From: an uncultured Candidatus Saccharibacteria bacterium
GTDB lineage: Bacteria > Patescibacteriota > Minisyncoccia > Phycocordibacterales > UBA12088
Assembly (NCBI GenBank): GCA_964635195.1
Contig: CAZWNC010000002.1
Coordinates: forward strand, 3,444-67,443
DNA length: 64,000 nucleotides
Direction: 5' to 3'
Every line of letters begins with the position of its first letter. Position 1 is the stretch's first letter. Under the pieces are notes generated by a model, which searched no databases, was not told where the DNA came from, and saw only the letters and a list, made by a program, of their open reading frames with translations. Positions 3,877 to 43,177 of this stretch are shown one piece after another. A program made the translations under genes and the position numbers.

Positions 3877-3973
3877 GTGACATTCAAAAAGCTGAAAGCG
3901 CGATGCGCCTGTGTACAAACAAACGTTTTGGAGATTGCACTTTCACGAGTACACACTACTCCCGCATAGATAA

Positions 3974-4011
3974 AAATTACAGTGCGAATACAAGTATTCG
4001 CACTGTAATTT
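3974..4011. promoter_or_regulatory. Perfect 18-bp-arm inverted repeat (AAATTACAGTGCGAATAC/GTATTCGCACTGTAATTT), a probable terminator or protein-binding palindrome between rnj and corA
   Basis: Arms 3974-3991 and 3994-4011 are exact reverse complements. A related palindrome occurs at 40946-40981. Confidence 0.6.
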
Positions 4012-4128
4012 ATGTGCGCTGCTACGTGCATTTGAAGTACATCACAGCATCCACAGGCAAACAGACGCGTCACCGACACCATATCACCCCTCTTTCCCCT
4101 TACACCTCTTCGTGGTACAACGTACACA

Positions 4129-5049: not shown

Positions 5050-5152
5050 CAATATTGTCTTGCGCACCTCCTCGTGGATATAAAGACAGCAAACGGCACG
5101 CTGTGTATACCTCAGTTCGCACTTTCATGCCACACCACGTATACTTGCACGC

Positions 5153-9901: not shown

Positions 9902-10127
9902 ACGATGGATCAGCAGTACTTGGTGATTCTGCTAATCTACCACTTCGCACCACTTACTAACACTATACTCCACTCGAATACCATCACATACACCGTTATC
10001 CACAGTACTGCGCGGGTCGCTGCGCCTATGACCGCTTACGCAACGACCCTAGGTGGGCACTGAACGGTTGCGCCACACAGACGCCACCTGTACACTCCCC
10101 AATAGATTCCAAAGACAGGAGAACATC

Positions 10128-17713: not shown

Positions 17714-18791
17714 GGCGAATTCGACTTCCTAACCGAACACTTATCCGTTTAAGTGTTCACTAATGAAGAAACGACAAAGAACCTATACTCGCATGAGCGA
17801 CACGGAACTCGACCGTGTCGCTGAATTACGTGCACAAGGTGTGAGCGTATCCGATATCGCTCGCGATCTCAACAGAGCAAAGTCGAGCATTTCGGAGTTA
17901 CTCGCGTCTAACAGTGACAAACGCGGTGCAGGTGGTGGCACGTTCCGTGCAGCGCTTGCGGTACATCGCAGGGCGGAGCGGAAGAAACGTCAACGCAAGC
18001 ATGTGAAGCTTGAGTGCAACGAAGATTTACTTCTTGAGTTGTATGTCCGCTTAGTGTTCCTTCACCACTCACCGGAACAAATTGCCTCACGACTGCAAAA
18101 AGAGTACCCTCAAGATACGACCATGCACCTAACCGCCGAGACTATCTACGAGTATGTGTTTGTACGCGCACGTGGCACTCTTCGAGACGACCTTGTTGCA
18201 TCCTTGCGACACCCACAACGTCACCAAGGACAACGTAGAAGAAGGGCTACGTTGCAAGGTAAATTACCCAACATCCTTTCAATTGATGAGCGGCCGGAAG
18301 GAGTACTCACGAGGCGCATACCCGGTCACTGGGAAAGCGACCTCATTGTGGGAAAAGAACATCATTCAGCGCTCATCTCGCTTGTCGAGCGGAAGTTCCG
18401 GTACCTCATCCTCATTCGTATCACCGCACTTGATGCCGAAACGTTCGCGACCAAGGTAGCAGACGCACTCAACACCCTTCCGAAGAAACTGCGCCGTACT
18501 ATGACTCATGATAACGGTAAGGAGATTGCTAAGGCGTTCGACATCGAAACAAAGACCGGTATTCGCGTGTATGTTGCACACCCGCACTCCCCTTGGGAGC
18601 GAGGTACGAACGAGAATACTAACGGTCTCGTGCGAGAGTTCTTTCCGAAAGGTACCGACTTTAGAGAGGTGACCGATGAGGATGTGTTCTATGTCCAAGA
18701 GCTCATCAATAGTAGACCAAGGAAAGCGCTTGACTGGGCGACGCCCACCGAGGCATTATTAGCATCGTTCGGTTAGGAAGTTGAATTCGCC
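17714..18791 (+). mobile_element. Complete IS30-family insertion sequence (1,078 bp) with 25-bp terminal inverted repeats and a 3-bp CCA target-site duplication
   Basis: IRL GGCGAATTCGACTTCCTAACCGAAC (17714-17738). The reverse complement of IRR (18767-18791) is GGCGAATTCAACTTCCTAACCGAAC, a 24/25 match. CCA flanks both ends at 17711-17713 and 18792-18794. One internal transposase ORF ends inside IRR. Confidence 0.85.
17763..18776 (+). CDS. IS30-family DDE transposase
   Basis: 337 aa with an N-terminal HTH and a C-terminal integrase core carrying HWESDLIVGK ... THDNGKE ... ERGTNENTNGLVREFFPKGTDF, the IS30 signature. Confidence 0.9.
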   Translation: MKKRQRTYTRMSDTELDRVAELRAQGVSVSDIARDLNRAKSSISELLASNSDKRGAGGGTFRAALAVHRRAERKKRQRKHVKLECNEDLLLELYVRLVFLHHSPEQIASRLQKEYPQDTTMHLTAETIYEYVFVRARGTLRDDLVASLRHPQRHQGQRRRRATLQGKLPNILSIDERPEGVLTRRIPGHWESDLIVGKEHHSALISLVERKFRYLILIRITALDAETFATKVADALNTLPKKLRRTMTHDNGKEIAKAFDIETKTGIRVYVAHPHSPWERGTNENTNGLVREFFPKGTDFREVTDEDVFYVQELINSRPRKALDWATPTEALLASFG

Positions 18792-19508: not shown

Positions 19509-20192
19509 CTACAACAGATCATACACAAATTGATCGAACGCCATGGTGAGCGAATCACGCTGTGCGACAAAAGAGGTATAGTGCGCTTCAAGTTCCGCAT
19601 GACGTGTTTCGGCCTCCGTGGTAATCGCATTAATCGAGCGTTTATGTTCATCAGTCAACTCACCTCCGTCTTCGAGCACTCGTGTGATGATGGCGTACGT
19701 ATGCTCATGTGTTTCCGAAAGGTTAGCAATAATTCGTGCCGACGTTTCGGCACACGCGCGCGCAAGCGACACAAGATTGTGTGCCTGCTCGCGCGCACGC
19801 ATGCCCGTAAAAATACGTGACATGGTATCGAGATTTTGAATGTTTAAGTACAGTTCGTCTTGTGCGACCGCGGCGTCCGCTATTCCCTTCTGAATCGAAT
19901 CGAGATGCGTAAACGCGACACGCGCGAGTGCCTCACGCTCACCACTCGTTAGCGTGCCGGTCAGAATGTCTTGCAGCAACGCAAGGAGTTCACTTCTATC
20001 GGAGTTCTTTTCGGTACTGGGACTGTGTACGAGAGCTGCGACCCGCGTTGCCGACACGTCGTAGGTGCTGTACGCATCGATGAATCCTACGACACTCGAC
20101 CGCTCACCCTCAAACCCGCCATAGTAGAGCCACGCGTAGGCACCACCACCCCCAAGCATGAGTGCGCAGAGTAGTGTCAAAAAAATTCGCAT
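19509..20192 (-). CDS. Secreted or membrane-anchored hypothetical protein
   Basis: N-terminal MRIFLTLLCALMLGGGGAYA signal. It lies 50 nt downstream of the giant ORF on the same strand. Confidence 0.5.
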   Translation of the reverse strand: MRIFLTLLCALMLGGGGAYAWLYYGGFEGERSSVVGFIDAYSTYDVSATRVAALVHSPSTEKNSDRSELLALLQDILTGTLTSGEREALARVAFTHLDSIQKGIADAAVAQDELYLNIQNLDTMSRIFTGMRAREQAHNLVSLARACAETSARIIANLSETHEHTYAIITRVLEDGGELTDEHKRSINAITTEAETRHAELEAHYTSFVAQRDSLTMAFDQFVYDLL

Positions 20193-20241: not shown

Positions 20242-23200
20242 CTAATCTCCTACCGCATAGAATGTTGTCTGCCCCCGATGTGTTGCTCCCGAAACACCGG
20301 TTGTAGGAATATAAATGCCCCAATACAACACGTCCGTCACCGGTGTTTCCGCCGCCATCGCCTTGGGCAGGTCAACCTCAAGCGTACTAGCGGTTCCTGA
20401 AAGTGCGCCACAAATGACACACGCGGAGTACGTAAATGAGGACGTGGAGAACTTTTGGTTGCCCACAGGAATGGTCGAGGCACCGCTTGTAAGATCCGTA
20501 CCCTCAAGCTCGAGATCGACCGCTATATTACCGGTATTCTGAATGGTCGAAGATGCGTTTGTTTGTGCCGTAGTGCTTGCACCCATCTCAAGCGCCCCAT
20601 ACGCAATATCACCACTCACAACTGACATGGCGAGCATGCTCCCCACCTCCGCACCGTCCGAGGTCGAACTTGCCTCATTCAAGGTATCGTCCATTATGAA
20701 CAGCCTCGCTTCCCATGTCTCAGCACTATAGTCTCCCCAATCGGTTGGATCGGCAAAGTACTGTATGTCTGCGGTGCAGGTCACTTCACACGTCGTACCT
20801 GAAGGTGCACACGTGAGCGGACACTCGAGTGAGTTTAGCTGGTAGCAATTATTTGGATTTGCAGCACAATCCGGACCGACGTCGGTTCTGTAGAAGGTCG
20901 AGGTGGCATAGAGAAGTGTTTCGCCTCCATTCAAATCAGACACGGTACCTGTTGCCACGATGGATGTCGTTTCACCCTCCATAAGCACGATCGGATTCGG
21001 ATCCATGACCGTCGAACCGTTGAATACCCATTCATTGATTTGTGGCCCATAATTTGCCGTCACTTCTGCAAGTGTCTGGTAGGAGTCAAGCTCAGAATCA
21101 CCATCAGAAACGCGCATGCAGTACGCATTGGATATGGCGTCTGCCGTCAACTCGACCGCGTACTCCACCTCGGTCGTGTATCCTTGCGGTAGAGTGGTCG
21201 AGGCGGTTTGATTACTATCGGCTTCAATGAGACGGCCGGCTGTGAACGGGAGGAGCGTAGTCGGTACCAAAAGCGCCTGTGTCTGACCTTGATCGACGTA
21301 CCCGGACGTTGTGGTCATACACACGGGACTGTCACTTCCCGCACATGCCGCCGACGTACCCGGTACAGTATCGAAGTTGACCGAGGGTACCGCATTACAG
21401 GTACCATACCCTGTCTTGTCCGCATACTGCAGTCGCCACTCTTTTCCCCATTCCTGTGGTCCGGAATTTTCTATGGAGAATCGTACCCGGAATGGTTGTC
21501 CCTGATCCACGGTCACTGAAGTATCCTGGGCCGCTTTCCAACTGGCACCCCCTTTCTCTTGCTCAAGCCCAACCCACACGGTGGGCTCATTCGCAAGGTA
21601 CGGTCGCGCCGTATAAAAATCCCAAGCTCCGTGTTGTGTCCAAAAGGAGAAGCCGGAACCACCTGCCGAAGTGTGCGAGAGATCACTTGCCGTTGTTGTT
21701 GCAAAGAGAGCGCCGACACTGTCGTACACCGATGCGTACAGTGTGCCACCGGAAAGCCAGTCCACCTCGACGGTATACCAACCACTAGTCCACGTGACCG
21801 TCGTACTTGCGAGGGTGAGTGCTGCCGTGGCGCGATTGGTCACATCTTCCGCGATTACCAATCGATCAGATGGATACTGTGTCAAACATACCGCGTAATT
21901 GGAGCCAGACCCACCGACTCCAAAGAGTGTACAGGGTTGATCCTCATAATTCTCATCCACATACTGCAAAAAACGAATGGTACTCCCTGGACCGAAGGTG
22001 GTCGTCGTTTGATACAGTCCACCGGTGGTAAAGTTTTCCTCTTGTCCCGATGCGGCATGGAGCGTGTATGCACCTTCGCCACCACTCTCCGCAATCGCAT
22101 CAAACTGAGTTGTGTTGCCGGTGTACCCTGTAAGGTCGTCATCCTCAAAATCATCAAAGAACGTAAACGTGTTCGAACCGCTTTCGGCATTTGCGGCGAA
22201 ATCATTGTCATAGTACAGGTATATGAATCCCGTATCGTTTGCCGAAACACTCGGAATCTTAACCCAAACCGTCGCGGTTGCTGCGGTATATGATTCGATG
22301 AAGTGCGGAAGTGAGGTGGTGCCGGAGTTATCGGTGAAGCGCAAGTCATTCCAACTCGTTTGCATGTCACCAACTTCGTACGCAACCTCAAATCGTACTG
22401 CGGTGTTTGTAAGTGCACCCGCGTTTGGATTCGTCACGTGCACGCGCTTGCGTTTATTCCAGTTGGAATCGTACCATTCACTATCGGGTGCCCCGTCCGT
22501 ACCATCATCATTCCTAAATCTGAAATGTGTCTGCGAAAACTCAAGACACGTGCTGTCGTCCCAACGAATGGAACCACAGGCATCGATACCATCATCATCA
22601 TATGCTTCACCATCTATTTCACCCATATGGTTTCGAAAATCCCAGAAATTCGCATTAGTCGACGTGCCGTTTCGTTTAATGTTCGCTACTCCTGAAACGC
22701 CCGTCGTAGTACCGAACCGTACGCTGGCGATTACCTTGGTCGGATTTTGATCGATGGTGGTCGAGGCGACCTGCAAAAGGTACCCACCGGATTCCGCCCG
22801 CTCAAAATCACCATACGAGAGTGAGGTCACGGTAAGTGCATTGGTCAGCACAAGGCCTGACGCATTTAGATTGCGGAACGAATAGTACTGGGCATTCAAG
22901 GTACCACCCGACTTAGCAAACGCGTAGGTACCCGTTCCTGCAACCGCAATCGTCGTGGTAGCCGACTCGGTACCGACAATTTCGAGTGTCCCTCCCGTAA
23001 ACGACAGTGATGAACTTGACGCGATGCGTACGTCCACCTGTCGCGACCCACCAATCGGTGCCCCTCCCTCAAAGTCGGTTGCATAGCTCCAGTAATCACT
23101 GCCGGTACTCCTTACGTACTCACCCCAGATAAACAGATCTCCGCTCGTGCCACCATGATCCATTGAATAGAGCGAGCCTGTCGAGGGCACCGTTGTGGTT

Positions 23201-26200
23201 GCAGCGGCACTATCCCACATGCGCACATCCGTATTCGCACCGAGAGTAAGGTACGCGTAGGTATCCCCACCCGTATTTCTCGTGTTTACCGTATAAGCGG
23301 TACCGGATGCGTTGAGGTACAGGGTACTGTTAGTCCAATCCGTCGTAGTGCTTGCAAACGCATTTTCAAAGACTCCACCCACTTCAAGCATGGTAGAACT
23401 TGCTAGTGTGAAAGATGCTCCTTGTTGCAAGCGCCACATGCCACTCGTGGTCGCACTGCCGGTCACTGTCCAGCCACCACCAACGCCTCGCAATACCACA
23501 TTCGAGAACAGTGAGCTGCTTGCCGTGATTGTCTGTCCGGTCGTGGTGGCATAGAGGTATAGGAGTCCCGCATTACTATTGAACGTGCCGGTATTCACGA
23601 ACGATCCACCGACCGCGAAGGTACCGGCAGGTGCGGTCAAGCCACCGGAAGAAATCGTCGTAGTGCCGGTGGTGGTTGCGTGGGTATCTGCAAACGCCCA
23701 TGAACCGGTACCTGCGATAGCGAGATGCCGAGCCGCTGACGCGCCAAAACGAAGCGTCTGGGTAGTGAGTGTCCCATACATGCGCAAGGTGCCACTATGG
23801 GAAAATGTTCCGCCTTGCGCACTGAAACCGTTCGCTATCGCAAACGTTCCGGAAGGTAGTGCGACGCTTCCTGCAGTGATCGATACTGAGCCGGTCGACG
23901 TCGCTTGCGTGTCGGTCATGGTATGTGCGCCGGCGCCTGCAAAGGTGAGTGACCCGACCGCATACCCCCCAAAGGCCACTGTTTGTGCCTGTGCGGAACT
24001 GAAGCGAATACTGGTCGAAGCTGCCGACATCGTAGCACTGTTCACAAAGGAACCACCGACCGAGAGGGTCGAGGTGCCGAGTGTGACATTTCCTGCACTG
24101 ATTGTGAAATGACGTGTCGTAGTCGCATCACGATCAGTAAAAGTCCACACACCACCCGACCCGTTGAACGTAAGGTTATTGAACGCACTGCTGTTAGGAC
24201 TCACGAGTTTGCCCGAAGTGGTCGCGGTAAAGGTAACGGTCGACGTGCCTGCGGTAAAGGTTGCCCCCGTGCCGGTAAGCCAGCTCCCGCCTATAGTGAT
24301 TGCCTGCGCCACTGTGGGCGACGATATGTACGACGCATTGTCGCGCAACTCAAGAGTACCATCATACTCAGTACCGGTACCCCCCGAGTTCAGAGTGACA
24401 TCACCGCCCGGAGTAAACGTTTTACCAGTCCACACAATGAGCTTGTGATTTGCAGATACGGTGAGCGTGTCTGAAACACCGTCGTTTGCATCAAAAGGTA
24501 TGTCTGTGTCGTCGCTCGAATCGTATGTTGCCATATGTGCGATTGTAACTGGGTTTACATCTTCATGCCGAACCACCACCCTGTTTTCGTAGAGGTGCAT
24601 GTCGGTAAGCGTGAGGACGGGATCTACCAGCACATGCGCCGCTTTTCCGGCAACACCATCCAGGTACACTGTCACAACCGAGACCGGCATGGAAATGTTT
24701 GTAAAGGAATATGCGCCGGTTCCGGGAGCACACGACGTAGTCTGTGGACTTACACCATCGAGCACCAACGTAACGACCGATGCGCCGGTGCAAAGACTTG
24801 ATACTGAGCCGGACTCATTACTGTAGACATTGCCGGATATGGTTATCTGCGAATTACTATCATCCCAGATAAGGTATCCGGGGTCTGGATCAGGAGCTGA
24901 GTCGCCGTCATGCATTTCTCCGTAGTAGTTGCCCAGCGCGGGAGTAAAGCGCCAGAAGCTGGTGCTCACGCCGGTTGTGGAGGCGTTGTACCCCGATGCA
25001 ATACCGGTCGAAGTTGCGAAGGAAATACGATCCCACCGTTTGATAGGGTTTGCAGAGATCACCGACCCCGCGACCGTCAGCATAGTACCGCCTTGTATGG
25101 AGAGTTCGAGATCGCCGTCCGAAAGCTGACTCACTGTTGGGCTTCCCGAAAACTCAAGACCTGTGGCGGATATATCACGAATCTTATAGTATTGTGCGTT
25201 GAATGTGCCACCGGTTACCCGAAGCGCATACGTTCCACCACCCTGTGTCGCGATACTTGTTGTCGACATCGTTGACGTACCGACGATGTTCCACGTACCA
25301 CCCGTAAGTGTGGTCGTAGCGTTTGGTGCCAACCGCACCTGTACGGTACGCGGACTTCCACCAAGTGCAGTGCCGTCAAAGTCGGTTTCGTACGACCAGT
25401 ACTCATTGCCACTTGCGCGCACATAGTCACCCCAAATGTACAGCGCACCGTCCTCACCATCATGATCTTGCGAGTACAGTGAGCCGGTACGATCGACCGT
25501 GTACACGGTCGAGGTTGAATTCCACATGTTCACATCGGTGTTCGCACCGACACGAAGTGTCCCATACACATCACCCCCCGCGGTCTTGGTGTTCATTGGG
25601 TATGCGGTGCCACTCTGGAGGTAGAGCGTCGAACCATCCCATGTGGTCGCACCTCCTCCCACTGTGTTCGTAAAGACCCCCTGGACACTGAGTGTGGTAC
25701 CGGAAGTTTGCGTATACGCCGCAGCTGAGGTCAGTAAGAAGTTTCCAGTCGTAGTTGCGCTACCGAGCATAGTCCACCCGCCACCCACGCCATTCAAAGT
25801 AAGATGATGGAACGACGATAGACCCGGGGTGATTGTCTTGCCGGTTTCAGTCGCATTAAAGACCACGCCACCACCGTTACTGGTGAAGGTACCCTGATTC
25901 ACGTACGAACCACCAATCAAAAGGTCATTGGTATTTGCGGCACTATAGGTTGCGTTTGCTCTGATCCACACCATGCCGGATACCGTCAAGAGCGGGTTAG
26001 ATGCCGTTACGTTCACTGTGACAGGGTTCGTACCGTTACCAACGGAAAGTGTCGCCGCGCTTGGTGTACCCCCGGACAACGTATAAGTCGGACTTCCCGC
26101 ACCACTTGGCGCAAGTACCAGATGATGATAGGCAAGTGCCGGAACGGTCATCGCACTCGTGCCGGCAAATGTCGTCGTAGACGTATTTGCGGTAAAGGTG

Positions 26201-29200
26201 CCGGCAACCGAAAGTACCGCACCCGCGCCGTTCAGAGTCCAATTGACCGAGCCTGCGTCAAGTACGTGTGTTGCCGCTACCGTCAGCACCCCTGTCACAA
26301 GCACGTTTCCATTGCCATTTTTCGTCGTCGTATATGCAGTGCCGTCACCCAACGTCAAATTATTGAACGTCCAATCGTTTGCGCCACCAAATGTGCCGCC
26401 CTTACCGACCGTCACAGTGCCCGCAGAAAACGCAAGCGTACCATCGCCCGATAGAGCACCGTTTTGTACATTCAGATTCACAGCACCGGAGACAGTACCG
26501 TCCGACACGGTCATCGCATTTCCAACCGTCGTCGATGACGCGATTGTCCATGCACCGTCCGCACCCGAGAATGTCAGATTGTAAAAACTCGACGAAGGTG
26601 CAACCGTTTTGCCTGTTGTGGTCGCGTTCAACGTGACAGTTGACTGTGCCGCAGTAAAGGTCGCACTTGCGTCGGCAATAAAACTCCCGCCAATGCTGTG
26701 CGACTCACTTCCAACTGCAGTAAATGTACTTCCACTGGCAAGTCGCAGAGTACCGTCATACCCAGCGCCCGAGCCGCCACTCTGAAGTGTGACATTTCCA
26801 CCTGGCGCAAATGTTTTACCAGTCCACACGTGAAGCGAGGTTTCCGGAGAAACGGTGAGCATGCCACTCTCTGCGTCAAATGGTACATCCGCGTGCTGGT
26901 CACTGTCATACGGCATCATGTTCGCGATTGTAAGTGCGTCAACGCTTTCGTGACGAACAATCACTCGATGTTCATACAGATCGAATCCGGTGATGTCAGA
27001 CTGCGGCGAACGTGAGACAACCGCCGCTTTGGTTGTTGTACCAAACACAAACGCAACGAGGGACACGTCTCCGCTATACGTTACATCATTGAAGGTGAAT
27101 GTGCCGGTTCCGGCATCGCAATGCGTGTCATAGGTGGCACCACCCGAAACCACGAGACGAAGCACCTGTGTCGAACCGTTACAGGTCGCCGGTGCGCCAC
27201 CTATACCTTCACCTGCGTACACTGTTCCCGAAACATCGATCGTAAAGCCGGAGTCATCCCATCGCAGTGATCCGGCGCCAACTACAGGGTCTGAGTCGTA
27301 ATCTTCACCATCATAATTGCCGTTGTGATTTCGAAACCACCAGTACGAACTTGCTGTGCCCGACGCTGTAACGTTATACCCTTCCGTGATACCGGTCGAG
27401 GTACTGAACGCAACACGCTGAATTTGAAACATTGGGTTTGCATCGATGGTGGTCGAAGACACGGTGAGCATCGTACTGCTTGCACCGACCGCGGTGAGAG
27501 TATACACACCGTCTGAAAGCGAGGTTACCGTCGAACTTCCAAGTATGGAGAAGCCATGCGTGTCCATGTCGGTCATACTGTAGTACTGCGCCGTAACCGT
27601 ACCGTTCTCGACCGACAAACCGTAGCTCCCCGAACCCTGATTGCTGATTGTGGTCGAAGCACTCGCACCACCCACCACATGAAGTGTCGCATTACTGAAA
27701 CGTGCGGCTGCGCCGGACGCAAAGCGAACGTCGACCTGTCTCGGACTTCCACCGATGCCTGTGCCGTCAAAATCGGTTGCATGCGACCAGTAGTCGGCAC
27801 CGCTCGTACGTTCGTACGTACCATATATATACAAATCGCCATCCTGCGCAGCATGATCTTGGCTGTAGAGTGAGCCGGTTTGTTCAACCACAGCACCGGT
27901 CGAACTCGCTTGCCACATGCGAATATCGGTGTTTGCACCAATGCGCAGGGTACCATACCCTTCGGCATTCTGTGTTTTAGTACCGACTGTGTAACCGGTG
28001 CCCGAATTGAGGTAGAGAGCGGAACCGTCCCAAGTGGTCGCAGACGGCGCACTGTTCGTAAAGGTACCGAGTACCTCGATCGTTACCCCGCTTCCTGCGG
28101 TAAAGCTTGCCGCGTTCGCAATCGTCCACGCACCGGTCGAGGTGGCGTTGCTACTTACTGTCCATCCACCTGAAGCATTGTTAAATGTCACCTGATTGAA
28201 CGCGTTTTGTCCGGGATTGATAGTGTGACCTGTCGCGGACGAGTTGAAAAATACCGCACCGTTCCCATGCGCCCAGGTACCCCCCGTAGTCAGGAAACTA
28301 CCTCCCACCGTGAAGGTGCCGGAAGGAAGTGTCGTTGTGCCTTGCACAAAACGTACGGTGCCACTTGCGGAAAGATTGGTATCGGCGAGCGTGAAGGTGC
28401 CACCCGCACCGTCAAACAGCACTGTGTGAAGGTTCGATCCGTTGGTGCGTATGGTTTCTGCGATATACGACGTAAAACGAAGCGTGCCGCTATTATGCGC
28501 AATGGTACCGCCCGTATTGATGAGCGACTTACCGATTGCAAAAGTCCCCGAAGGCAATGTGAGTGTGCCATTACCCACGCGTACCGTTCCGGATGTGGTT
28601 GCATTGGTGTCTGTCCATGACCAACTGCCCGTACCGGATACCGTAATATTTTGAAGCGGTGATCCGTTCTGATATATCGTTTTTGCGCCGGCACCGGCCA
28701 ACTCTACCGTCCCACCGTTGTGCTGAAGTACGCCACCCGTATTAGTGAGATTCCCCGACACTGTGGTCGTGCCGAGTGCCAGCGTAAGCGTACCGGTTGC
28801 AACGGTAAGTGTATTCCCAATCGTGACCGTCGGTTGTTCGAAGTACCAGTTGCCCCCAACGCCGTTTGCGGTCAGATTCCAAAACGATGAGGCGCCCGGG
28901 TAAATGGGGTTACTTGTCGAGGTTGCGGTGAATGTCACCGTACCCGCACGCGCTCCGAAGCTTCCGTAGTTACGGAAGTATCCGCGCACTTCGAGTGGAT
29001 AGTTCAGTGCAGACACATCGAACGAATTTGCGGTCGCGATCGTAAGATCTGTCAACTTGACCGCACTCTGCAAAGCGACACTTTTTGAACTACCGTTCAC
29101 ATGCACCGCACCGAGATCTTGCTTACTCGCAGTCGAGTCAGTGATAGTGACCGGCGTCGTTGCGCCGTCAAACGTCGTGGTGCCGGTACCCTTCACAAAC

Positions 29201-32200
29201 GTCGTACCGAGTGCAAACGAGAGATTCCCCCCGATTATCATATCTGAAGCTGATACGGAAAGTGTCCCGTATGTCACAGTGAGATTTTTGTTCACATCCA
29301 GCAGACTTGCAAGTGTCCATGTCGCGGTACCGCTCTGTCCAAACGTAAGGGTATTGAACGCGTACTCACTCGCACCCGAGGAGTCAATAGTTTCAAGCGA
29401 GGACGTCGCAGTGAATACGACCGTGCCGTTCCCTGCCGCAAAAATACCGGTATTATTCCAGCTTCCATGTACGTAAAAGGTGTTACTGTCTGCGGTCGTA
29501 GTCCCTCGTATAACGACATCATGCGCATACAGGGTGCCGGAGTTTGCGCTGTCGGGACGATACGTGCTTGAGCTGGCTACATACAGTTTTGTATCGTAGT
29601 ACCCCGCTGAACTGGTGGCGACATATAGGTCGTTCCCCGTGTCAACGTCAAAGAAGAGATCTTCATCACCCGACGACGTGTAGTCGTAGAGGGCTATGTT
29701 TGCATTGCTTGTGGTTGTGGCATCCTGTGACCCGATGGTCAGGTGTCGCTCAAAGAGCTCGACACCCGTCATGTTTCCAAACCCGTCATAACGTGTGACC
29801 GCCGCCGCCTCCTGTGAGTCACCCACCCCGTCTATAAAGACCGTAATCACATCACTCGGGAACATGGTGACGTTTGCGATAGACCACGTTCCGCCTGAAA
29901 TAGTGCCGATTTTCCCGGCCTGAAGCACGCCGTTTACCGCGACACGCACATCACCCCCCGAAGCGACCGGAGTACTCTCGTCATATTGTTTGATAGTCCC
30001 GGAGATAGTGATACCCTCCGACCACGAAATAGTCCAGTCGTGCAAGACGGGGCAATCGCCCGATACACAGACGAAATTCGCGACGTAGCGGATTGTGCCG
30101 TACGTTGCATACGAAACGTTTGTAAGGTCGATACGGTTACTCGTCGTCCCCACCCCATTGCCGGGAAGCGCTTCGTCGGGAATGAGCGCCCATGTCTCAC
30201 CTGCATCGTTCGAGTATTCGATTTGATACAATATATATCCATCGTCAGTGGTGTCGGTCGAACTGGCAATACCCCACCGCGGGCCGGTGCCGTCAGTAAA
30301 TACAACAGGATCTGAAACTATGGAGCCGGACGTGTAGGCGGTATAGCGACGCGCCACCAGGTGGAGTGGCTCTCGACGCACAGCCTGCGTATTACCATCA
30401 CTCTCGAGCTGTTGCGCTACCGACCATTGTGCACCATTCCAGTAGGAGAAGAAGTAATCGTCCGCATCATCGTCGTAGTACAACCCAAGAATGTTTCCAT
30501 CGCCGGTCCGAGCAGTGAAGGCGCTATACGCCTCACCAAGCGTACTCACGTTTTGCGCAATTGTCACCGGTGTCGTCCGATCAAGCACGCGATACTGCTC
30601 GGTCGTCACCACCCCATCACCGTACGTGAAGAGTACATTGCCTTCACGGCCGGCCGTAGTCTCGTACTGACACGACACTTGATTGTTGATCTCATTTACG
30701 CCATCCACCTCCAGCTCAGTCGACGCGCCCCATGCATTCGTCGTGCCATCCCATTCGGCATAGCCAATGTCGGTATCTTCATCGGTATACACGACCGTGA
30801 TACGATCCGTTCCAAGGTCGCGACACATCGACGCTTTGTTGTGATCATTACCGATCGCGGTCGTCGTCGTTGCTTGCCATGACCCGTTCCAGCGCTTAGA
30901 AGCAAAGTTATTGTTGGTACCATTACTAAAGACAATCACCGCATCGGTACCAGAATCTTCATACATAACCGCCATACCCTCGTCGGTCGCTGCACCGGCG
31001 TTTCCGACCAAGGTCGAGTTGCTCCACGTACCACTTCCATTCCACACCTGCGCTTCATAATCTGCGGTGCCAGCATTGTTGAAACGCGCCATCAAAATAA
31101 TCTCGTTTGAGTCCGTGTCTGCTGCGAGCTGTATCCATTCACAGTTTTGTGCAATGGTAAGATTGATCGTACTCGTACCACTCCAGTCCGTACCATCCCA
31201 CGTACGATACACGGCATCCTGCCCGCTACACGCGACAACCATCGCCCGCCCCGAAAGACTTTCGTATGTAATATCGTACCCTCGATATGCCACATTCGAA
31301 ACGGTTGGCACCATTGTCACCAGGTCAGACCAACTTGCAGTATCACCGTCATACACTTGCGCCACCACCTTCCCCGAAGCACCCTCGGTCGCCATGAGGT
31401 ACTCATTTCGAGTCGGCGCGGCGTCGACCCGCACCCAATCAATACGTTCACTCACGTTCTGGGCGCTTTTTTCCGTCCCCCACGCTTGTCCGTTCCAAAT
31501 ACGGTAGCGGGGTGTTTGGATGTTACCCTCCACGTATGCCGTCATCGCTTCGCGAATCGTTGAGGTGATACGAACCTCATCAGACCCATAGGTTTCCGTA
31601 CTGTTGAGTAGCGCGGTGTCGAACTGCTCGTCAGTGGTCTGATACCATGTCGAAACGAGTACCGATGTGTCCACCGTAAAGCTCCTCACCGGTGAATACA
31701 CACTCCACGCATCACCTCCCCCTATATCGGAATCGATTGCACGCACGCGCCACCAGTATGTTGCACCATTCGTAAGCGCGTCTGCGCTTTGTATCGTAAA
31801 CTGAATCGTGTCTCCTTCAACAAATTGTGAGGTATCGGTTGAGCTTGCGGTATTCACAAACCCGGCATGCACCCCCGACCTGCGCGTAGTTGACGCGGCA
31901 AAGTCAGGCGTCGACGACCACTGAAACTCATACTGCAAATTATCACCCTGCGGGTCGGTGGAGTAGAATGTGAACGACGGTGTCGTCGTGCCGACCTTTT
32001 CATTGTCGAACAGGGTATCGAGTGTTGGTTGCTCTACTGCAAGACCCCACGAAATAGTCCAGCTATTGAGGCGCGGTTTCGCTCCTCCGAGGTCTCGAAA
32101 ATTTGCCCGCACCCGTATTTTGCTATACACACTTGGATCAAGCGACAAGAGCGATATCGGTTGCGTCACATCATGTCCGGCTACGTTGTCCGGCAATGCT

Positions 32201-35200
32201 GAGTCCGGTATGAGTGCCCACGCACCGGTCGCTTCCGTATAGTATTCGAGATGATACTTGATATCGCCGGCATTTTCAGCATCAGCCCAATCGAGTGTTC
32301 CCCATGCATTACCGGTCGTCCGCCAATCAAAGTCGATCATGGGACTCGTGCTGGTGCCCTCGGTCAAGGGTGGCGTGAGCACGATATCGTTCGTCGACGT
32401 CGCCTCGGTCGATTCGAGATCGTCCTGCTCAAATTGCTCAAAGGTGGTCTGGTGCCAGGTAGAAATAGTGATAGACGAGCTCGCGGTAAAGCTCCACGGG
32501 AGAGACCATTCACCCCACTCACCACTGCCGTTGGTATCCTTTGCTCGCACACGCCACCAGTAGGTACCGTCCGCAAGCGACGTCGTGGGGACAAAACGCA
32601 CGGTTTCCCCGCTATTAAACGGCGCGAGGTCGTTGGTTGATATGATATTTTTAAACTCACTGTTATCGTTTTCACTCGTACTCTCTATCTCCTGCGATCC
32701 AAACGTATAGTCATCGTCAACCTCGATTTGATAATCAAGTACGTCCCCCTTGCCGTCTTCCGCCACAAAAGTAAACCAGGGGGAGGACGAAGCAAGCGCT
32801 TCGTAGGTAAAGGGTGTCGCGAGTGTCGGTGCAACGGGTGGTGCATTGGTAACAAGTTGCGGGTACCGATCGTAGTCGTTCAGTGTCGTACCGTCAGCAT
32901 TGACGAGGCGGAAACAGTAGTTGGTGCTGGAGGTTGCGTTGTGTTGGAGCACAAAATCAAGCTCGGCCTCTTCACCATCAGCAATCGCGCTTGTGTTCGT
33001 CGCGGTATTATTCTCTTCCTCGTACGACAAAAGCACATCAGTGGTCGAGAGGGTGGTGGTCGAGAGGGTGGTGCCATCTGCAGGCGCGTTGTTATACCCC
33101 CGCCAAGGCTCACTACTCCCTATCGCACCAACCTGTTGCCAGGAAAGTGACGCCGAACACTGCGCACCCTCCGCCCACTGCAGTGACCACATCGCAGTAG
33201 TGGCGGCAAGCGTTACGTTGGTGTCCTCAATCGCTAGACGAAGCCGCAACACCTCGCCACTGCTCGGAGCATGACTTGCACCTATTGCTTCATCCTCGAT
33301 CAGATTGTACGCACCGGATGGGTACGCATCGGTCGGCGTGATACCGCTGGTATTTGCAAACCACTTGTAATGCGTCTGCGTGAGGTACGGCTGCCGCTCC
33401 CATGATATTGTCCAATCGTCCAACGTCGGTGACTCGTTTGTATTTGACGTGAGTGTCGCTTTGAGACAGAGTCGATTGTAATCAGTGGTGGTTGCGATTC
33501 CGGAAAGATCCAGTGGGGACGAGGTTGCCGCAAAACCATCTTCATTACCGGGAAGCACGCCGTTCGGTACCACCGCGGTACAGGTGGATGATGCGGCGGC
33601 AGCCCACAGTACCTGCACCTCAACGCTCGTATTACTTGGCTCGGTTGCACTCCACAGCGCTTCACCCCATGACGACTGTCCAACGACGAGGTCGAAATCA
33701 ACGATCGGAGACACGATATTTCCTACTGACGCTTGGTACCGTTGCGGTGCGAGTGCGATCGGCTCCGCATAGGGTGATGTATCATCCGGCATCGAGGTTT
33801 CAAGTGTCTCACGCGAAGACCACCCGCTCCCGTTCCAATAGGAGAAGTCGAAGCGATCATTCGTATCATCCCGAAAAACCGCAAGGATTTTGCCGTCACC
33901 GGTCCGCACTGAACCGGCAGTCCACGAGTCCTCAATCGTCGTGATGCTTTGCTCGGTAGCAGCAAAACTTGAGCCCGTCCACACACGATAGCGTGCGTTC
34001 GTTTCATCACTGTACGGTATCATCAGGTAGCCATCACGGCCGGTCGTCGTTTCGTACTGGCAAGAAATCGGTCGTGCATGATAGGTCGCACTTCCTTTTC
34101 CATCGTTGTCGACCTGTGTCGTACCCGCCACATACGTATCCCATGCATTTGTCGCACCGTTCCAATACGCAATCTGCACCTGCGCATCTTCGTCGATATA
34201 ACACAGTCCAAGGTTGTTGGTACCATCATCCGCCACTAGCTCACCCCACTCGAAGTCGTCCTGAGTATTGCGACTGGTATACGCAGTCCACGTTTCCGCC
34301 GCACTGTTCCACACTGCACCCACAATACCGGGTGTTTGCCCACCGCCGTTTCCAAGGGCAACGACGGCTTCTTCACCCGATTCTTCCCACTCAACTGCCA
34401 TACGCTCGAACATCTCCTCACCAAGTGTATTGGCACCACCCGTGTACGAAGTAATGTTCCACTTCGTTGTTTCATCCCTATAGACTTGCACCTCGAAATC
34501 AGATGTCGTGTTCGCGGAATCCGCCTGTGCCACCATTACGATTTCGTCAGAACTCGGGCTTGCCGCAAGCTTGATCCAGCTGCAGGGTGCGTTGAACTGC
34601 AAATCGATGGTCGAAGTGGCCGACCAATTGGTGCCGTTCCACACCGAGTAACTTGCCTCATAGTTGGTACCGGAATTGTAACAAAAGACCGCAACCGCGT
34701 TGCCGGACAACGATTGATACGCGATATCGAAACCGCGACGATCGATACTCGTCTGATTCGGATTAAGCTCGGTTGCAGTACTCCATGTTCCCGCTGTGCC
34801 ATTGTACACCTGTACATTGACATCACTGTTCACATCCTGTGTCCCCAGCACATACTCATTGCGAGTAGGCGATGACTCGAGCACCGTCCAGCTGATCCGC
34901 CCACCCACGTCCTGCGCAGAGCCCTCGCTCGACCACGCAGTCCCGCTCCATGTGCGATACCGTGGCGTGGTACCCGCGCCCTCGCCGTACGCGACCATTG
35001 CACCGACAGGCGGTGTGGTTGCGATACGCACCTTGTTTTCGCCGTAGGTTTCAGTACTTATAAGTGTCCCATCGTCAAACTGCGCATCTTCGCTCTGATA
35101 CCACGCCTTCGGGTCGGTACCGGAGACGTACGTAAAGCTCTGCACCGCTGACCACTCACCAAAACTGTTTGAACCGCTCGTATCCTTGGCACGTACCCGC

Positions 35201-38200
35201 CAATAGTAGGTGGTGCCGGTCGTAAGAGCAGTTTGTACCGAGAAACGAATGCGATTACCTTCGGTAAAGGGTGAGGTATCCCCACCGGACGTCACATTGG
35301 TAAAGCAATTTGGCGAGCACCCCGTTTCGTTATCTGATGTGCGATCGGCAAGTGGCGAGGTGTCGAGATCTGCGTCATCATCATACTGTACCTGGTAGAC
35401 CAAGTCGGACGTGCCATCCAGATCGGTCGCGCTAAAATCGAGGTACGGGGTCGATGAACCGGTCTTCTCATTATTGAATGGCACATCATACATAGTCGGC
35501 ATTTCCGGCGAGAGGTTGAACGCCTTCCAGTACCCCAACAACCGATACTCATCAGCGGTCGTCGACTCCGCGTAGTATTCGATGGTGGCACTTGCGGTGT
35601 TGTCCGCCTGCACATGCATGCGTCCCATATTGAAGCCGGTCCCCGCACCGTCCGAGTATGCAAAATCGAGCGTGCGTCCCACCGCCGAACCGTTCGCATG
35701 CACACCGAGCACGTTCGACCCACTGGTGTTTGTGGAGTACGCAAGCAACACTTCGGCGATATTGTTCTTGTACGCGCCGTACCCGTCGAGTGCGCGATCC
35801 TGCCATACCGTCGCCGAGGTCGGTCCCGTGAAATCATCCAACCGCTCCTGATAGGTCAACTCGTCCGGCAACGTGGACCAGTACCCAAGCAAGTAGTAAT
35901 CGACCGAAGCGGCAGCCGCACCCTCGACCTGCGCATACCCCTGTATGGTAGCGTTCGACGTCGAGGCAAGTACGTTCATGGTGATGAAGTTGGCACCACC
36001 GTTTGCGCTCTGGTGTATTTTAACCAAGCGACTGAGCGTTGGTGCGGAGCTGTACCAACGCACACCCGCGTCATAGTCGGTACCTGCGGCAAAATTGGCG
36101 AGTGCCATTTCAACCACGTCTGCATCACCCACTCCGTATCCGGAAAGGTTGATGTTATTCCATGTCGCATCATTCGTGGTACCCAGATTTGGGTCGATGT
36201 TTACTAATCGCTCCACATAGGTACCACTCGTCCAATACCCAAGGATGGTGAAGGTTACTTCCGCCGCCACATCAGAGTACACCTGAATGGAAGAAGTCGC
36301 CGACGCCTGCACGTGCATCGTAACGGTTGACAAGCCGCCGGTCACGCCGGATTCATGGAGCAAAAGGTACCGGTTCAGTGTTGAGGTGGCGGTCGAGCGC
36401 ACACCACCATACCGTTCACGGTTGTTACGACTGTTGGTAATGGCGACTTCAACAATCGCATTAGCCGGTACTCCATAGCCTGCGAGGCTTACCGTTCCCC
36501 ATGTGTCATCACTGGCTGCACTGAATGTCTGGTACATCTCGGTATAGACCGCGAGTGCGTCCGACGCAAGCTTCCACTGGCGCGCCTCGACAAATGGCAA
36601 TCCACTGCCCGAACGTACTTCCGCAGGACCGAGGAGGTAGAGATACGGGGAAACATCCGGTGCGTCGTACTCGTAGGAAAAGGTCTGTGTCTCACCGGCT
36701 GTAAGGTCGACGGTCCAGGTAAGGCGTTTTGCGCCGCCCCACACACTCGTCTCTGCGCCACCTGCGTGCACCAGCACAAAATTTTCCGGTACCGCCTCAA
36801 CGAATTGTCCCGTGAAGTCGCTCGTCGCAGTAAGCTCTAGCTCCATCACGTACGATGCCTTGGGCCAGATACGTGTCGCACCACTGCGACGAATGGTGAA
36901 CGGCACCGACTCACGTACTTCAAACGCGTCACTCACCCGGTGCACCACCTCTCCATTTAGGTTTACGTGCGTCAATTGCAAAGTGTATGTCCCCACCGTA
37001 CGCGGGCGGTACCACGCAAGGTAATCGGGGTCATCGGTGACATTGTTTGCTCCACACGTACCCTGTGGTTCCACCCCCACTTCCTCGGCGTTACCCTCAG
37101 GATCCGTCACGGTCAGATGCAGTTCTGCGTTACAGATCGTATCACCCTTGTCGTCGAGGGCCGCCATATGAAATTCAATGGAATCGTCGGGCAGATAGAT
37201 GGATTGTGGCGTATTGATCGCAAGTACCCCCCAGTAGAAATCAAACGAATCGGTAAAAACGGTGCCGAGCTCATCGACACTGATCTCGAGGGTATAGAGA
37301 CCCGGTTGAATAGCTCGCGGCATCTCGGTCATACGTATCGTCCACTGCCCCTCGGTGCCATAGATGACCTCGAACCGCGCATCCTCAACGCGTACTCCGC
37401 CATGCAGGAGGTGTACCTCACCAACCTGCGCCAAGCGCTCACGGAATAGCCCCCGGAAGAAACGATTCACGACACCCTTTTGCGCACGGTACTGCAACGC
37501 AAACTCCGGTCGATCACCAAGCTCAAAATCGCGAAGCGCTTCGCGAAATGCGTGGAAGCGGGGGTCACGTAACTCTCGCATATACGCAATCCCTTGGAAG
37601 AGGTCCGGTCGAGCAAGTGGTTCATACACCGACACCGCGGGTATCGGAAGTTCCTCCAATACACCAAACACAAAGGTAGATGACGCGAGACGATATCGTT
37701 CAAACAATGTGGACACGCGTCCGTCCGCCAAGCGTGTTTCGGTCGTGTGCATATCTTCGGGGAGTACAAATGAAAGCGTGCGGACTCCCGCGGCATACTC
37801 ACTCAAAGCGGGGGTAAGTGAGATAGGTCCGCGCGCAGAGAGTCGCTCAGCGGCATGTGGTATGAATACGTCACGTGACGCACCAAAGGAAAGTGGTGAC
37901 ACGTCAGCATCATCGGAAAGCGTGACACTATTTTCGTCTCGTTCACTCACCACGGACACGACCGCACCTTCCTCCGGCTCCGCAAGACCCAAATACTCGA
38001 TGGGCGAAGCAGTCAACGCAGGCGCATGAAGCCGTGCAGCCTCGTCGACCTGCTCGTTACCAAAGTAAGCGTACAGCGATGTTGTACCGCGCGATCCGCC
38101 ATCAGATAGTTCGACGGCATACTGCGCTTCCTGATCGACGTACGTATACCTGAACTCTTTGACCGGAATCTCCGTTCGTGTACCTGCGTCAAAAAAACGT

Positions 38201-42502: not shown

Positions 42503-42519
42503 AGCAAGGAGCGAGTGAT

Positions 42520-43014
42520 TTACTCGCGTGAGTGTTGCTCGTCGACCCGCACCACGTTGAGGCGCAGACCCTTTGATGCCCGGCCGACAAGCGGTAAGCG
42601 CAGTGCGAGTACCCCGTCTTTTGTTTTTGCTTCGGCACGCTCCGGATCGATCTGGTCGGGAAGAATAATCTGACGATAAAAGTCGCCCCAATGACACTCC
42701 TCGAGAGTGTAGTCGCCATTTTGTGTGCTGTGGACTTCGTGCATCAGACTCTCTGGACGCGCTGCTGAGCCTTGAATGTTCACGACGTCGTTCTCACCCG
42801 AAATAGAAACATCGAGCGTACGCATATCCATGCCGGCAAGCTGCGCATAGATAATGATTTCATCGTCGGACTGAAACACGTCAACGGGAAGCTGGAGTGC
42901 GTGTTCGGGCACGACTTCTTGCGAACCACCGTGCTGCGTCGACGCACCTTCAGTCGGTCTGCCGCTTTGATCGACCAGACCTTTGCCTTTGAGTTTATCC
43001 ATGAATGTACCCAT
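42520..43014 (-). CDS. Hsp20/alpha-crystallin family small heat-shock protein
   Basis: 164 aa with an ACD core VDVFQSDDEIIIYAQLAGMDMRTLDVSISGENDVVNIQGS...GDFYRQIILPDQIDPERAEAKTKDGVLALRLP. Confidence 0.9.
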   Translation of the reverse strand: MGTFMDKLKGKGLVDQSGRPTEGASTQHGGSQEVVPEHALQLPVDVFQSDDEIIIYAQLAGMDMRTLDVSISGENDVVNIQGSAARPESLMHEVHSTQNGDYTLEECHWGDFYRQIILPDQIDPERAEAKTKDGVLALRLPLVGRASKGLRLNVVRVDEQHSRE

Positions 43015-43177
43015 AAGAAATAATGAACTTAGACACTAATGAACATGCGTGACGGTCTGACGCCCGGGAGACGTGAGATCGTTGATGTGATAAGTATAGC
43101 ACGACACCTGCATGCGGCAGCTGGAAAACAACCGGACTACGTGTGGATAAACCTTAAAACCTACATGAGAAACATAC

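What the first reader, a model, noticed from the sequence alone, without database searches (positions are those of the whole stretch)
22510..28940. Three divergent ~790-aa tandem repeats (period ~2.3-2.4 kb) inside the giant ORF
The anchor motif LYS[QM]DH..GDL[YF]I[YW]G.Y.R.SG..YWS..TDF[DE]G.....PR.V.VR recurs at DNA ~27860, ~25470 and ~23158. The flanking blocks are collinear (GGT-rich 44-aa mini-repeats, AQYY, FW.F(R)N..G.YDGE, WDDS, LYE.RVV.RHE, VWTGKTF.PGG.VTL.SGG). The copies are only about 40-50% identical at protein level. DNA similarity is low, so the triplication is old and kept in frame. The mini-repeats look like parallel beta-helix rungs, meaning a long rigid stalk.
Basis: seen in the sequence. 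Interest (0 to 1): 0.55.

Follow-up and report, generated by a model that had tools for sequence, protein, structure and literature searches.

The report
Triplicated beta-solenoid module in giant surface protein
A 6,783-residue secreted protein of an ultrasmall (CPR/Parcubacteria) bacterium contains three ancient, diverged copies of a ~800-residue all-beta module that probably forms a fixed-length stalk. The pattern is real and conserved in many relatives, but it is a fairly ordinary way to build a giant surface protein, and its function has not been tested.

Summary
The giant ORF (window 20242-40593, minus strand, 6,783 aa) holds three collinear copies of a ~770-920 aa unit (aa 3526-4446, 4447-5246, 5247-6014). 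The LYS[QM]DH motif sits at aa 4242, 5039 and 5808, giving offsets of 797 and 769 aa. Self-BLAST E-values reach 1e-105, with 37-43% global identity. DNA identity is 47-50%, and third codon positions are saturated at 29-34%.

Orthologues in five other CPR assemblies, and 31 database cluster representatives plus the window protein itself, carry the same three units. Their unit lengths are almost invariant (~800 and ~768 aa, then a ~764 aa tail), so the triplication is old and its length is constrained.

AlphaFold2 (pLDDT 87) predicts each unit as a small beta-sandwich, a long run of short strands typical of a beta-solenoid, and a terminal cap. No Pfam, NCBIfam or PDB match is significant. The weak fold hits are nearly all beta-helix adhesins, tailspikes and lyases.

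The 44-aa mini-repeat is not supported. The sub-periods are ~75-78 aa and ~21-22 aa. The cap, not the stalk, is the most conserved part and has near-invariant Asp, Arg and Glu residues.

Best reading: an N-terminally anchored or secreted surface fibre that presents a DUF2341-containing tip. Adhesion is inferred, not shown.

The parts
20242..40593 (-). Giant ORF, 6,783 aa, that contains the repeats
   Evidence: Full-length orthologues in L002/L003, and the C-terminal two-thirds in L001.
40459..40593 (-). N-terminus (aa 1-45): a basic stretch followed by the only hydrophobic segment of the protein (aa ~25-43). This is a Sec signal peptide or an N-terminal membrane anchor.
   Evidence: Kyte-Doolittle scan. 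No LPXTG, RTX or prepilin motif.
27256..30018 (-). Repeat unit 1 (aa 3526-4446, 921 aa): beta-sandwich link, a longer solenoid with extra ~76-aa sub-repeats, and a cap
24856..27255 (-). Repeat unit 2 (aa 4447-5246, 800 aa). This is the unit that was modelled: beta-sandwich at residues 1-100, solenoid at ~125-540, cap at ~540-800.
22552..24855 (-). Repeat unit 3 (aa 5247-6014, 768 aa). It ends at WDDS and abuts the DUF2341 region.
27718..27870 (-). Anchor motif, copy A (LYSQDH...YWSHATDFDG...PRQVDVR)
25327..25479 (-). Anchor motif, copy B. It includes the family-wide near-invariant residues W5066, D5071, F5072, D5073, G5074 and R5082.
23020..23172 (-). Anchor motif, copy C (LYSMDH...YWSYATDFEG...SRQVDVR)
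20245..22551 (-). C-terminal 769-aa 'tip' region after the last cap. It contains DUF2341 (aa 6082-6154, DNA 22132-22350). Its length is conserved at 755-777 aa in the 32 three-unit proteins (31 database representatives plus the window protein).
30022..35544 (-). A separate, upstream super-repeat in the same protein: aa 1684-2398 vs 2841-3524 (offset ~1150 aa, 35-43% identity), plus a partial copy at aa 2519-2849. It is not part of the triplication but shows the protein is modular throughout.

Best explanation
The window comes from a CPR/Patescibacteria (Parcubacteria/Paceibacteria-type) genome.

The giant gene encodes a Sec-exported protein that is either N-terminally anchored or released. Its C-terminal ~3,250 aa form a conserved cassette: three paralogous ~770-920 aa modules followed by a ~765 aa tip that contains DUF2341. 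Each module is predicted to be:
- a ~100-aa beta-sandwich, with one conserved Cys pair in units 2 and 3 (not in unit 1);
- a ~20-coil beta-solenoid made of short strands;
- a conserved cap that ends in WDDS.

Placed end to end, the three modules would make a stiff rod. My estimate is a few tens of nm, which is an inference. The rod would hold the tip away from the tiny cell, most plausibly to contact a host cell or polymer.

The cap of every unit carries near-invariant acidic, basic and aromatic residues (TDFDG, R, GE..D.D, WDDS). I interpret this as a repeated ion-binding or ligand-binding site. It could rigidify the junction between units or add binding sites along the rod.

Shown: the repeats, their age, the fixed lengths, the purifying selection, the predicted all-beta solenoid-like fold, the N-terminal export signal and the CPR origin.
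Inferred: the rod geometry, the surface location, the adhesion role and the role of the cap site.
For: Repeats and their statistics.

Conservation of the three-unit plan:
- L001, L002, L003 and L006 all have three units.
- The tree of units shows orthologous B and A clades.
- The 32 three-cap proteins (31 cluster representatives plus the window protein) have unit 2 at 795-805 aa in 28 of 32, unit 3 at 763-777 aa in 30 of 32, and a tail of 755-777 aa. Total length ranges from 3.1 to 7.7 kaa.

Purifying selection against the L001 orthologue: the units are 70-73% identical in protein, with only 37-38% identity at third codon positions. They are more conserved than the flanking regions, which are 61-62% identical.

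Fold:
- AF2 gives pLDDT 87 and pTM 0.77, all beta.
- Strand spacing is ~7.9 aa with a 21-22 aa period.
- The weak Foldseek lists are dominated by Ag43, Hbp, EtpA, HMW1, tailspikes and pectate or alginate lyases.

Export: there is a single N-terminal hydrophobic segment.

Tip: DUF2341, E 2e-19.

Host organism: homologues of the unit are named Kaiserbacteria, Minisyncoccia and Doudnabacteria. The neighbouring PBP2 is closest to proteins named Pacebacteria and Parcubacteria.

Literature:
- Giant (>4,000 aa) Patescibacteria proteins with FhaB and/or DUF2341 domains are proposed to be adhesion or host-interaction exoproteins (PMC11809585).
- Epibiotic growth of a cultivated Patescibacterium needs multiple adhesins (PMC10633639).
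- DUF2341 proteins have been proposed as pilus-tip adhesins (PMC4858521).

Gene context: the neighbouring genes on the same strand encode cohesin-, dockerin- and Ig-like-domain proteins, that is, extracellular proteins.
Against: - There is no experimental or expression evidence.
- No fold match reaches significance (best E 0.005-0.08, TM <= 0.3). No Pfam, NCBIfam or PDB-sequence match covers the unit.
- Model coordinates could not be inspected, so handedness, coil count, straightness and the position of the conserved residues are unknown. The junction between one cap and the next link was not modelled.
- The strict conservation of charged cap residues would also fit a catalytic site.
- Fixed copy number and length are unusual for adhesin stalks, which often vary in repeat number.
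- No cell-wall anchor motif was found.
Confidence: 0.55

Rival explanations
1. Each unit is an enzyme rather than a spacer. It would be a beta-helix polysaccharide lyase or hydrolase, like pectate or alginate lyases and phage tailspike depolymerases. The active site would be the conserved Asp/Asp/Arg/Glu/Asp cluster of the cap. The giant protein would then be a three-site depolymerase that opens the host envelope or capsule.
For: - Near-invariant D5071, D5073, R5082, E5226 and D5229 across ~190-220 cap instances. All three paralogous copies keep them, except that copy C has Glu at the position of D5073.
- The weak Foldseek hits of the cap model are almost all beta-helix carbohydrate-active enzymes and tailspikes: dextranase, PL6 and PL3 lyases, pectin methylesterase.
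- From established knowledge, Ca2+-dependent pectate lyases use an Asp cluster plus a catalytic Arg on a beta-helix.
- Giant genes of predatory Omnitrophota have been linked to cell-wall degradation (bioRxiv 10.1101/2023.11.21.568195).
Against: - All these fold matches have E >= 0.9 and TM <= 0.3.
- There is no Pfam hit to Beta_helix, NosD, Pectate_lyase or any glycoside hydrolase family, even at E <= 5.
- The profile search against PDB sequences found nothing.
- Conserved acidic clusters are equally typical of structural Ca2+ sites in extracellular rods.
Confidence: 0.15
2. The protein is a structural envelope or fibre component with no specific ligand. It would act as a fixed-length spacer or 'ruler' that sets the thickness of a surface layer or the distance between the symbiont and its host.
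For: Unit and tail lengths are conserved to about +/-1% across the 32 three-unit proteins, while the N-terminal part varies by thousands of residues. The units are more conserved than the tip.
Against: The C-terminal DUF2341-containing tip and the upstream propeller-like super-repeats look like binding modules. The tip evolves faster than the stalk (61% vs 70-73% identity), as expected for a ligand-contacting end. One copy per genome locus does not suggest a lattice-forming S-layer protein.
Confidence: 0.15
3. The protein is a type IV pilus-associated tip adhesin (PilY1-like), delivered on a pilus rather than anchored by itself.
For: DUF2341 is present. PMC4858521 proposes DUF2341 proteins as pilus-tip adhesins. 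PMC11809585 cites the domain as a predicted component of a T4P-like system.
Against: None of the neighbouring ORFs scanned in the window (25 ORFs of 175 aa or more, chosen as likely genes) matched a pilus gene family (PilB, PilC, PilT or pilins). The N-terminus lacks a prepilin G/FTLxE motif. At 6,783 aa it is far larger than known PilY1 proteins.
Confidence: 0.05
4. The repeats are an artefact: an assembly duplication, or a non-coding or low-complexity ORF.
For: The sequence comes from a metagenome, and the region is rich in G, T and S.
Against: The copies are only 47-50% identical in DNA, so they are not an assembly duplicate. The same architecture appears in independent assemblies under purifying selection.
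Confidence: 0.01

Closest known systems
Giant (>4,000 aa) Patescibacteria exoproteins with FhaB and/or DUF2341 domains (described in PMC11809585)
   Same: CPR origin, size class, presence of DUF2341, lack of other annotation, and a proposed role in adhesion or host interaction.
   Different: That paper reports no full-length homologues and suggests rapid domain reshuffling. Here the C-terminal cassette (three units plus tip) is conserved in order, number and length in 31 cluster representatives besides the window protein. The ~800-aa unit itself has not been described and has no Pfam or NCBIfam model. I did not test an FhaB/COG3210 match directly. The Pfam and NCBIfam scans of the whole protein returned only DUF2341 and three weak, unrelated Ig/MG2-type matches in the N-terminal half.
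Beta-helical passenger domains of autotransporter and two-partner-secretion adhesins (Ag43, Hbp, EtpA, HMW1, FHA)
   Same: Predicted long beta-solenoid built of ~20-aa coils, an extracellular rod, and the top (non-significant) Foldseek matches.
   Different: There is no beta-barrel translocator or TPS domain. The N-terminus has a signal or anchor only. The rod is interrupted by beta-sandwich and cap domains into three ~800-aa paralogous modules. There is no significant sequence or structure similarity.
Right-handed parallel beta-helix carbohydrate-active enzymes and phage tailspikes (pectate lyase superfamily)
   Same: Solenoid-type strand pattern. The cap model's weak matches come from this class. 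A conserved Asp/Arg cluster is reminiscent of Ca2+-dependent lyase sites.
   Different: No Pfam Beta_helix, NosD or Pectate_lyase match at E <= 5. Fold E-values are >= 0.9 for the cap. Nothing indicates a trimer.
Repetitive giant adhesins rigidified by Ca2+ (RTX/BIg adhesins such as SiiE, LapA, MpIBP; recalled from my own knowledge)
   Same: A giant surface protein built from tandem modules, with possible acidic inter-module sites (the WDDS/GE..D.D motifs at the cap-to-link boundary).
   Different: Those proteins use tens of ~100-aa Ig-like repeats, often nearly identical and variable in number, plus RTX nonapeptides and type I secretion. Here there are three ~800-aa composite units, ~40% identical and fixed in number, with no GGxGxD motif.

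Membership tests
Right-handed parallel beta-helix (pectate-lyase-like) fold class | Stacked coils of about three short beta-strands, ~20-25 residues per coil | tested here: met
   AF2 model of unit 2 (pLDDT 87): 53 strands between residues 125 and 540, mean spacing 7.9 aa, DSSP autocorrelation peaks at 7-8 and 21-22 aa. This rests on a predicted structure read only through its DSSP string.
Right-handed parallel beta-helix (pectate-lyase-like) fold class | Significant structural similarity to a solved beta-helix | tested here: inconclusive
Right-handed parallel beta-helix (pectate-lyase-like) fold class | Sequence-profile match to Beta_helix/NosD/Pectate_lyase families | tested here: not met
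   Pfam at E <= 5 and NCBIfam at E <= 0.1 return nothing relevant for any of the three units. The profile search against PDB sequences found nothing.
Right-handed parallel beta-helix (pectate-lyase-like) fold class | Right-handed coiling, parallel strand stacking | not testable with these tools
Only the DSSP string and pLDDT are returned.
Autotransporter / two-partner-secretion beta-helical adhesins | C-terminal beta-barrel translocator or N-terminal TPS secretion domain | tested here: not met
   The Pfam scan of the whole protein shows only DUF2341 plus weak Ig-like and MG2 hits. The only hydrophobic segment is at aa 25-43.
Giant DUF2341-containing Patescibacteria exoproteins (PMC11809585) | More than 4,000 aa, DUF2341 domain, Patescibacteria genome | tested here: met
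   6,783 aa. DUF2341 E 2e-19, 70 bits vs cut-off 23.4. Homologues and neighbouring genes point to Parcubacteria, Kaiserbacteria and Pacebacteria.
RTX / BIg repetitive adhesins | RTX nonapeptide repeats (GGxGxD) and tandem ~100-aa Ig-like repeats | tested here: not met
   No GGxGxD motif in the protein. The repeat unit is ~800 aa and present in three copies.
PilY1-like type IV pilus tip adhesins | Genetic linkage to T4P genes and/or a pilin-like N-terminus | tested here: not met
   No T4P Pfam families among the 25 neighbouring ORFs scanned. No prepilin motif. Linkage elsewhere in the genome cannot be tested from this window.

The most novel reading that the evidence does not exclude
The three-unit cassette could be a previously unrecognised, family-defining 'molecular ruler with active caps'. 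In this reading it is a fixed-length beta-solenoid rod, widespread in CPR bacteria: the unit profile matches 2,181 clusters at 50% identity, although the three-unit cassette itself was seen in only 31 of them, and taxonomy was checked for only a few. Each module would end in a conserved Asp/Arg/Glu site that either cuts or specifically grips a host cell-wall polymer. The protein would then be a core, possibly enzymatic, part of the episymbiont-host attachment or feeding apparatus rather than a generic adhesin.
Probability: 0.12. Interest if true: 0.7.

Novelty: new variant of a known kind. Interest (0 to 1): 0.38.

Why it matters
How CPR/Patescibacteria recognise and hold on to their hosts is largely unknown outside a few Saccharibacteria. 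Their giant genes are mostly unannotated.

This work defines a concrete module that can be modelled with confidence. It has no Pfam, NCBIfam or PDB relative. It is widespread: 2,181 clusters at 50% identity match it at E <= 1e-3. In one large subfamily it is always present in three copies of nearly invariant length, upstream of a DUF2341-containing tip.

That gives annotators a new domain family to define. It gives experimentalists a tractable ~800-aa construct, with named candidate site residues, to test for Ca2+, glycan or catalytic function.

It remains an example of a common theme: a giant surface protein built from duplicated beta-rich modules.

Tried and rejected
- Self-BLAST of the whole protein against itself returned only the identity hit. 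Chunked queries were needed.
- Pfam at a relaxed threshold, NCBIfam and a nine-unit profile against PDB sequences found nothing in the units.
- Rfam and tRNA scans of the window were empty.
- The 44-aa mini-repeat was rejected. There is no BLAST diagonal or autocorrelation peak near 44 aa, only weak z ~2.3-2.4 at 42, 43 and 49 aa.
- P0005 at first looked like a single-unit DUF2341 protein. Its locus shows it is the C-terminal piece of a frameshifted giant gene with three units. Genuine single-unit proteins do exist elsewhere in the family.
- Rejected after motif and Pfam checks: an RTX adhesin, a sortase-anchored protein and a prepilin-like protein.
- An assembly artefact was rejected.
- Cluster look-up of ten giant homologues gave no informative names.


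Full report
**1. Observation**

The window carries one giant ORF on the minus strand, 20242..40593, encoding 6,783 aa. I cut the protein into overlapping 400-aa pieces and ran BLASTP against the whole protein. This gave strong off-diagonal alignments:

| Offset (aa) | Segments aligned | Identity | E-value |
|---|---|---|---|
| +797 | 4096-4702 vs 4893-5504 | 45-50% | down to 2e-105 |
| +768/769 | 4891-5246 vs 5659-6014 | 47-51% | 3e-78 |
| +1566 | 3897-4448 vs 5464-6014 | 37-46% | 1e-77 |

The anchor motif begins at aa 4242, 5039 and 5808, which is DNA 27870, 25479 and 23172.

Two corrections are needed.
- **Extent.** A weaker first 'link' segment at aa 3528-3800 aligns with the link parts of units 2 and 3 at 27-29% identity. 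The array is therefore aa 3526-6014 (DNA 22552-30018), made of units of 921, 800 and 768 aa.
- **Mini-repeat.** The 44-aa period is not seen. The internal diagonals lie at 76 and 78 aa (E 6e-25 and 2e-12). Sequence autocorrelation peaks at 75-76, 20 and 7 aa.

**2. Age and selection**

Codon-aligned DNA identity between copies is 47-50%, with only 29-34% at third positions. Synonymous sites are therefore saturated.

A scan of one genome per species found close and distant orthologues:
- L001, a Parcubacteria MAG, 73% identical over unit 2.
- L002 and L003, 52% identical. All three carry three anchors, spaced 794/768 aa (L001) and 815/774 aa (L002, L003).
- The Kaiserbacteria genome CP064968.1 (L006) also has three units, although the gene is split by a frameshift in the third link.

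In a neighbour-joining tree of the units, the copy-B units of all lineages cluster together, and so do most copy-A units. At least the split of B from A/C therefore predates these lineages.

Between the window and L001, the units are 70-73% identical in protein but only 37-38% identical at third codon positions. They are more conserved than the flanking propeller-like region (62%) and the C-terminal tip (61%).

**3. Size and regularity of the family**

An HMM of the three window units, searched against 1.84 billion cluster representatives, found 2,181 proteins at E <= 1e-3 and 618 at E <= 1e-30. Many are 5,000-7,700 aa long.

I re-scanned the retrieved sequences locally. Thirty-two proteins, 31 representatives plus the window protein itself, have exactly three caps:
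- Unit 2 is 795-805 aa in 28 of 32.
- Unit 3 is 763-777 aa in 30 of 32.
- The tail after the last cap is 755-777 aa in all 32.
- Total length ranges from about 3.1 kaa (fragments) to 7.7 kaa.

The C-terminal cassette is thus fixed in copy number and length, and the N-terminal part is the variable one. Single-unit proteins, and proteins with many partial link/solenoid copies, also exist.

**4. What a unit is**

Pfam sees only DUF2341 (aa 6082-6154) in the C-terminal half and nothing inside the units, even at E <= 5. NCBIfam and a nine-unit profile against PDB sequences also find nothing.

AlphaFold2 on unit 2, with 25 aligned sequences, gives pLDDT 87 and pTM 0.77. The model shows:
- a seven-strand beta-sandwich at residues 1-100;
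- 53 short strands between residues 125 and 540, spaced ~7.9 aa apart, with a 21-22 aa periodicity, which is the signature of a three-sided beta-solenoid;
- a cap at ~540-800 with more solenoid-like coils and a long hairpin.

Foldseek against PDB and BFVD gives no hit at E <= 1e-3. The lists are nevertheless dominated by beta-helix adhesins (Ag43, Hbp, EtpA, HMW1), tailspikes, and pectate or alginate lyases. The N-terminal sandwich matches small Ig-like or DUF3823-type domains. I therefore accept 'beta-solenoid' as the fold class on the strength of the model. I do not assign membership of any known beta-helix family. Handedness could not be checked.

**5. The cap is the conserved part**

Across about 190-220 cap instances from the family, the most conserved columns are Y5040, S5041, W5066, D5071, F5072, D5073, G5074, R5082, E5226, D5229, W5243, D5245 and S5246, at 90-100% conservation. 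Mean conservation is highest in unit positions 526-650 and 776-800.

All three paralogous copies in the window keep these residues, with one exception: copy C has Glu at the D5073 position, TDFEG. A pure spacer would not need invariant Asp, Arg and Glu. This argues for a metal- or ligand-binding site, or less likely a catalytic site, repeated once per unit.

**6. Context**

- The protein has one hydrophobic segment, at aa ~25-43 after a basic stretch. It has no LPXTG, RTX or prepilin motif.
- Upstream genes on the same strand encode cohesin-, dockerin- and Big_13-domain proteins. A paralogous trio of unknown proteins and two further large unknown ORFs follow.
- The 227-aa gene just downstream is weakly conserved in the same position in L002 and L003.
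- Housekeeping neighbours include GAPDH, RNase J, PBP2, MraW and RelA.
- The PBP2 search points to Parcubacteria or 'Pacebacteria'. Homologues of the unit are named Kaiserbacteria, Minisyncoccia and Doudnabacteria.

**7. Mechanism**

*Shown:* an exported giant protein with three ancient, selectively maintained, fixed-length all-beta modules and a DUF2341-containing tail.

*Inferred:* the modules stack into a stiff rod that projects the tip from the cell. At ~4.8 A per coil and ~20-26 coils per unit, the rod would be a few tens of nm long. The tip would contact a host or polymer. The cap sites would either bind Ca2+ to stiffen the junctions between units or add binding sites along the rod.

Literature supports the general picture but does not cover this protein.
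- Giant Patescibacteria proteins with FhaB and/or DUF2341 domains are proposed to act in adhesion or host interaction (PMC11809585).
- Epibiotic growth of a cultivated Patescibacterium needs multiple adhesins (PMC10633639).
- DUF2341 proteins have been proposed as pilus-tip adhesins (PMC4858521).

Rivals are a three-site polysaccharide-degrading enzyme, a ligand-less structural ruler, a pilus-tip adhesin and an artefact. They are weighed in the rival section. The enzyme reading is the one most worth testing.

**8. Novelty and verdict**

Tandem duplication of beta-rich modules in giant surface proteins is a familiar design, and giant DUF2341 proteins of Patescibacteria have been noted before.

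New here:
- the definition of an unannotated ~800-aa composite module;
- its ancient triplication, with near-invariant unit lengths, across many lineages;
- a conserved charged site in each cap.

I rate it a new variant of a known kind, of moderate interest (0.38). Function is still inferred.

Noticed in passing
window 30022-35544 (-), aa 1684-3524 of the giant ORF: A second, independent super-repeat. aa 1684-2398 aligns with 2841-3524 (offset ~1150 aa, 35-43% identity, E to 1e-77). A partial third copy lies at aa 2519-2849. Each copy has a 'YWWRVRA.D' FN3/Ig-like domain followed by about eight 'WNG..W' blades, which looks like a propeller. Pfam gives only weak Ig_Rha78A_N hits.
   Followed up: partly
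window 35518-36513 (-), aa 1361-1692: A tandem ~113-aa repeat (aa 1361-1575 vs 1474-1692, 33% identity, E 2e-19) with a 'LLGYW' motif, just upstream of the super-repeat.
   Followed up: no
window 40988-45064 (-): The two genes immediately upstream on the same strand carry a cohesin domain (40988-42697) and Big_13 plus a type I dockerin domain (43178-45064). This may be a cohesin-dockerin surface-assembly pair next to the giant gene.
   Followed up: no
window 45721-46944, 48390-49763, 49760-51301 (-): Three paralogous proteins with no Pfam match (25-32% identity to each other, E to 6e-42), apparently with signal peptides. They form a small family of unknown secreted proteins in the same gene cluster.
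   Followed up: no
window 59113-63951 (-) and 54962-59011 (-): Two more large ORFs (1,612 and 1,349 aa) without Pfam hits. The first shares a domain with giant-protein aa 2361-2582 (32% identity, E 1e-25).
   Followed up: no
window 19509-20192 (-); L002 18163-18876; L003 17044-17757: A 227-aa helical protein with an N-terminal hydrophobic segment lies directly downstream of the giant gene. It is weakly conserved (24-25% identity) in the same position in the L002 and L003 orthologous loci, so it may be a partner or accessory protein.
   Followed up: partly
L006 (CP064968.1, Kaiserbacteria) ~9929-10094: In this 1.05-Mb contig (probably a complete genome), the orthologous giant gene is split by a frameshift inside the link domain of unit 3 (5,626-aa and 994-aa products that overlap). 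This is either a sequencing error or a pseudogene or phase variant.
   Followed up: partly
L002/L003 units A and C: In the L002/L003 lineage, copy C is closer to copy A of the same protein (55-56%) than to the window's copy C (44-45%). In the window and L001, A and C are 40-42% identical. This may reflect gene conversion or an independent re-duplication in that lineage.
   Followed up: no
P0066, P0069, P0071 (homologues): Three three-unit homologues have a second unit of ~1,245 aa instead of ~800 aa. This is a ~450-aa insertion in an otherwise length-invariant cassette.
   Followed up: no
window 17763-18776 (+): An ORF with HTH_38 and Tc3-type transposase HTH hits lies ~1.5 kb downstream of the giant gene's stop codon (20242). 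It may be an IS element remnant.
   Followed up: no
window 1-64000: No tRNA genes and no Rfam matches at gathering threshold in 64 kb. GC skew is negative throughout.
   Followed up: no
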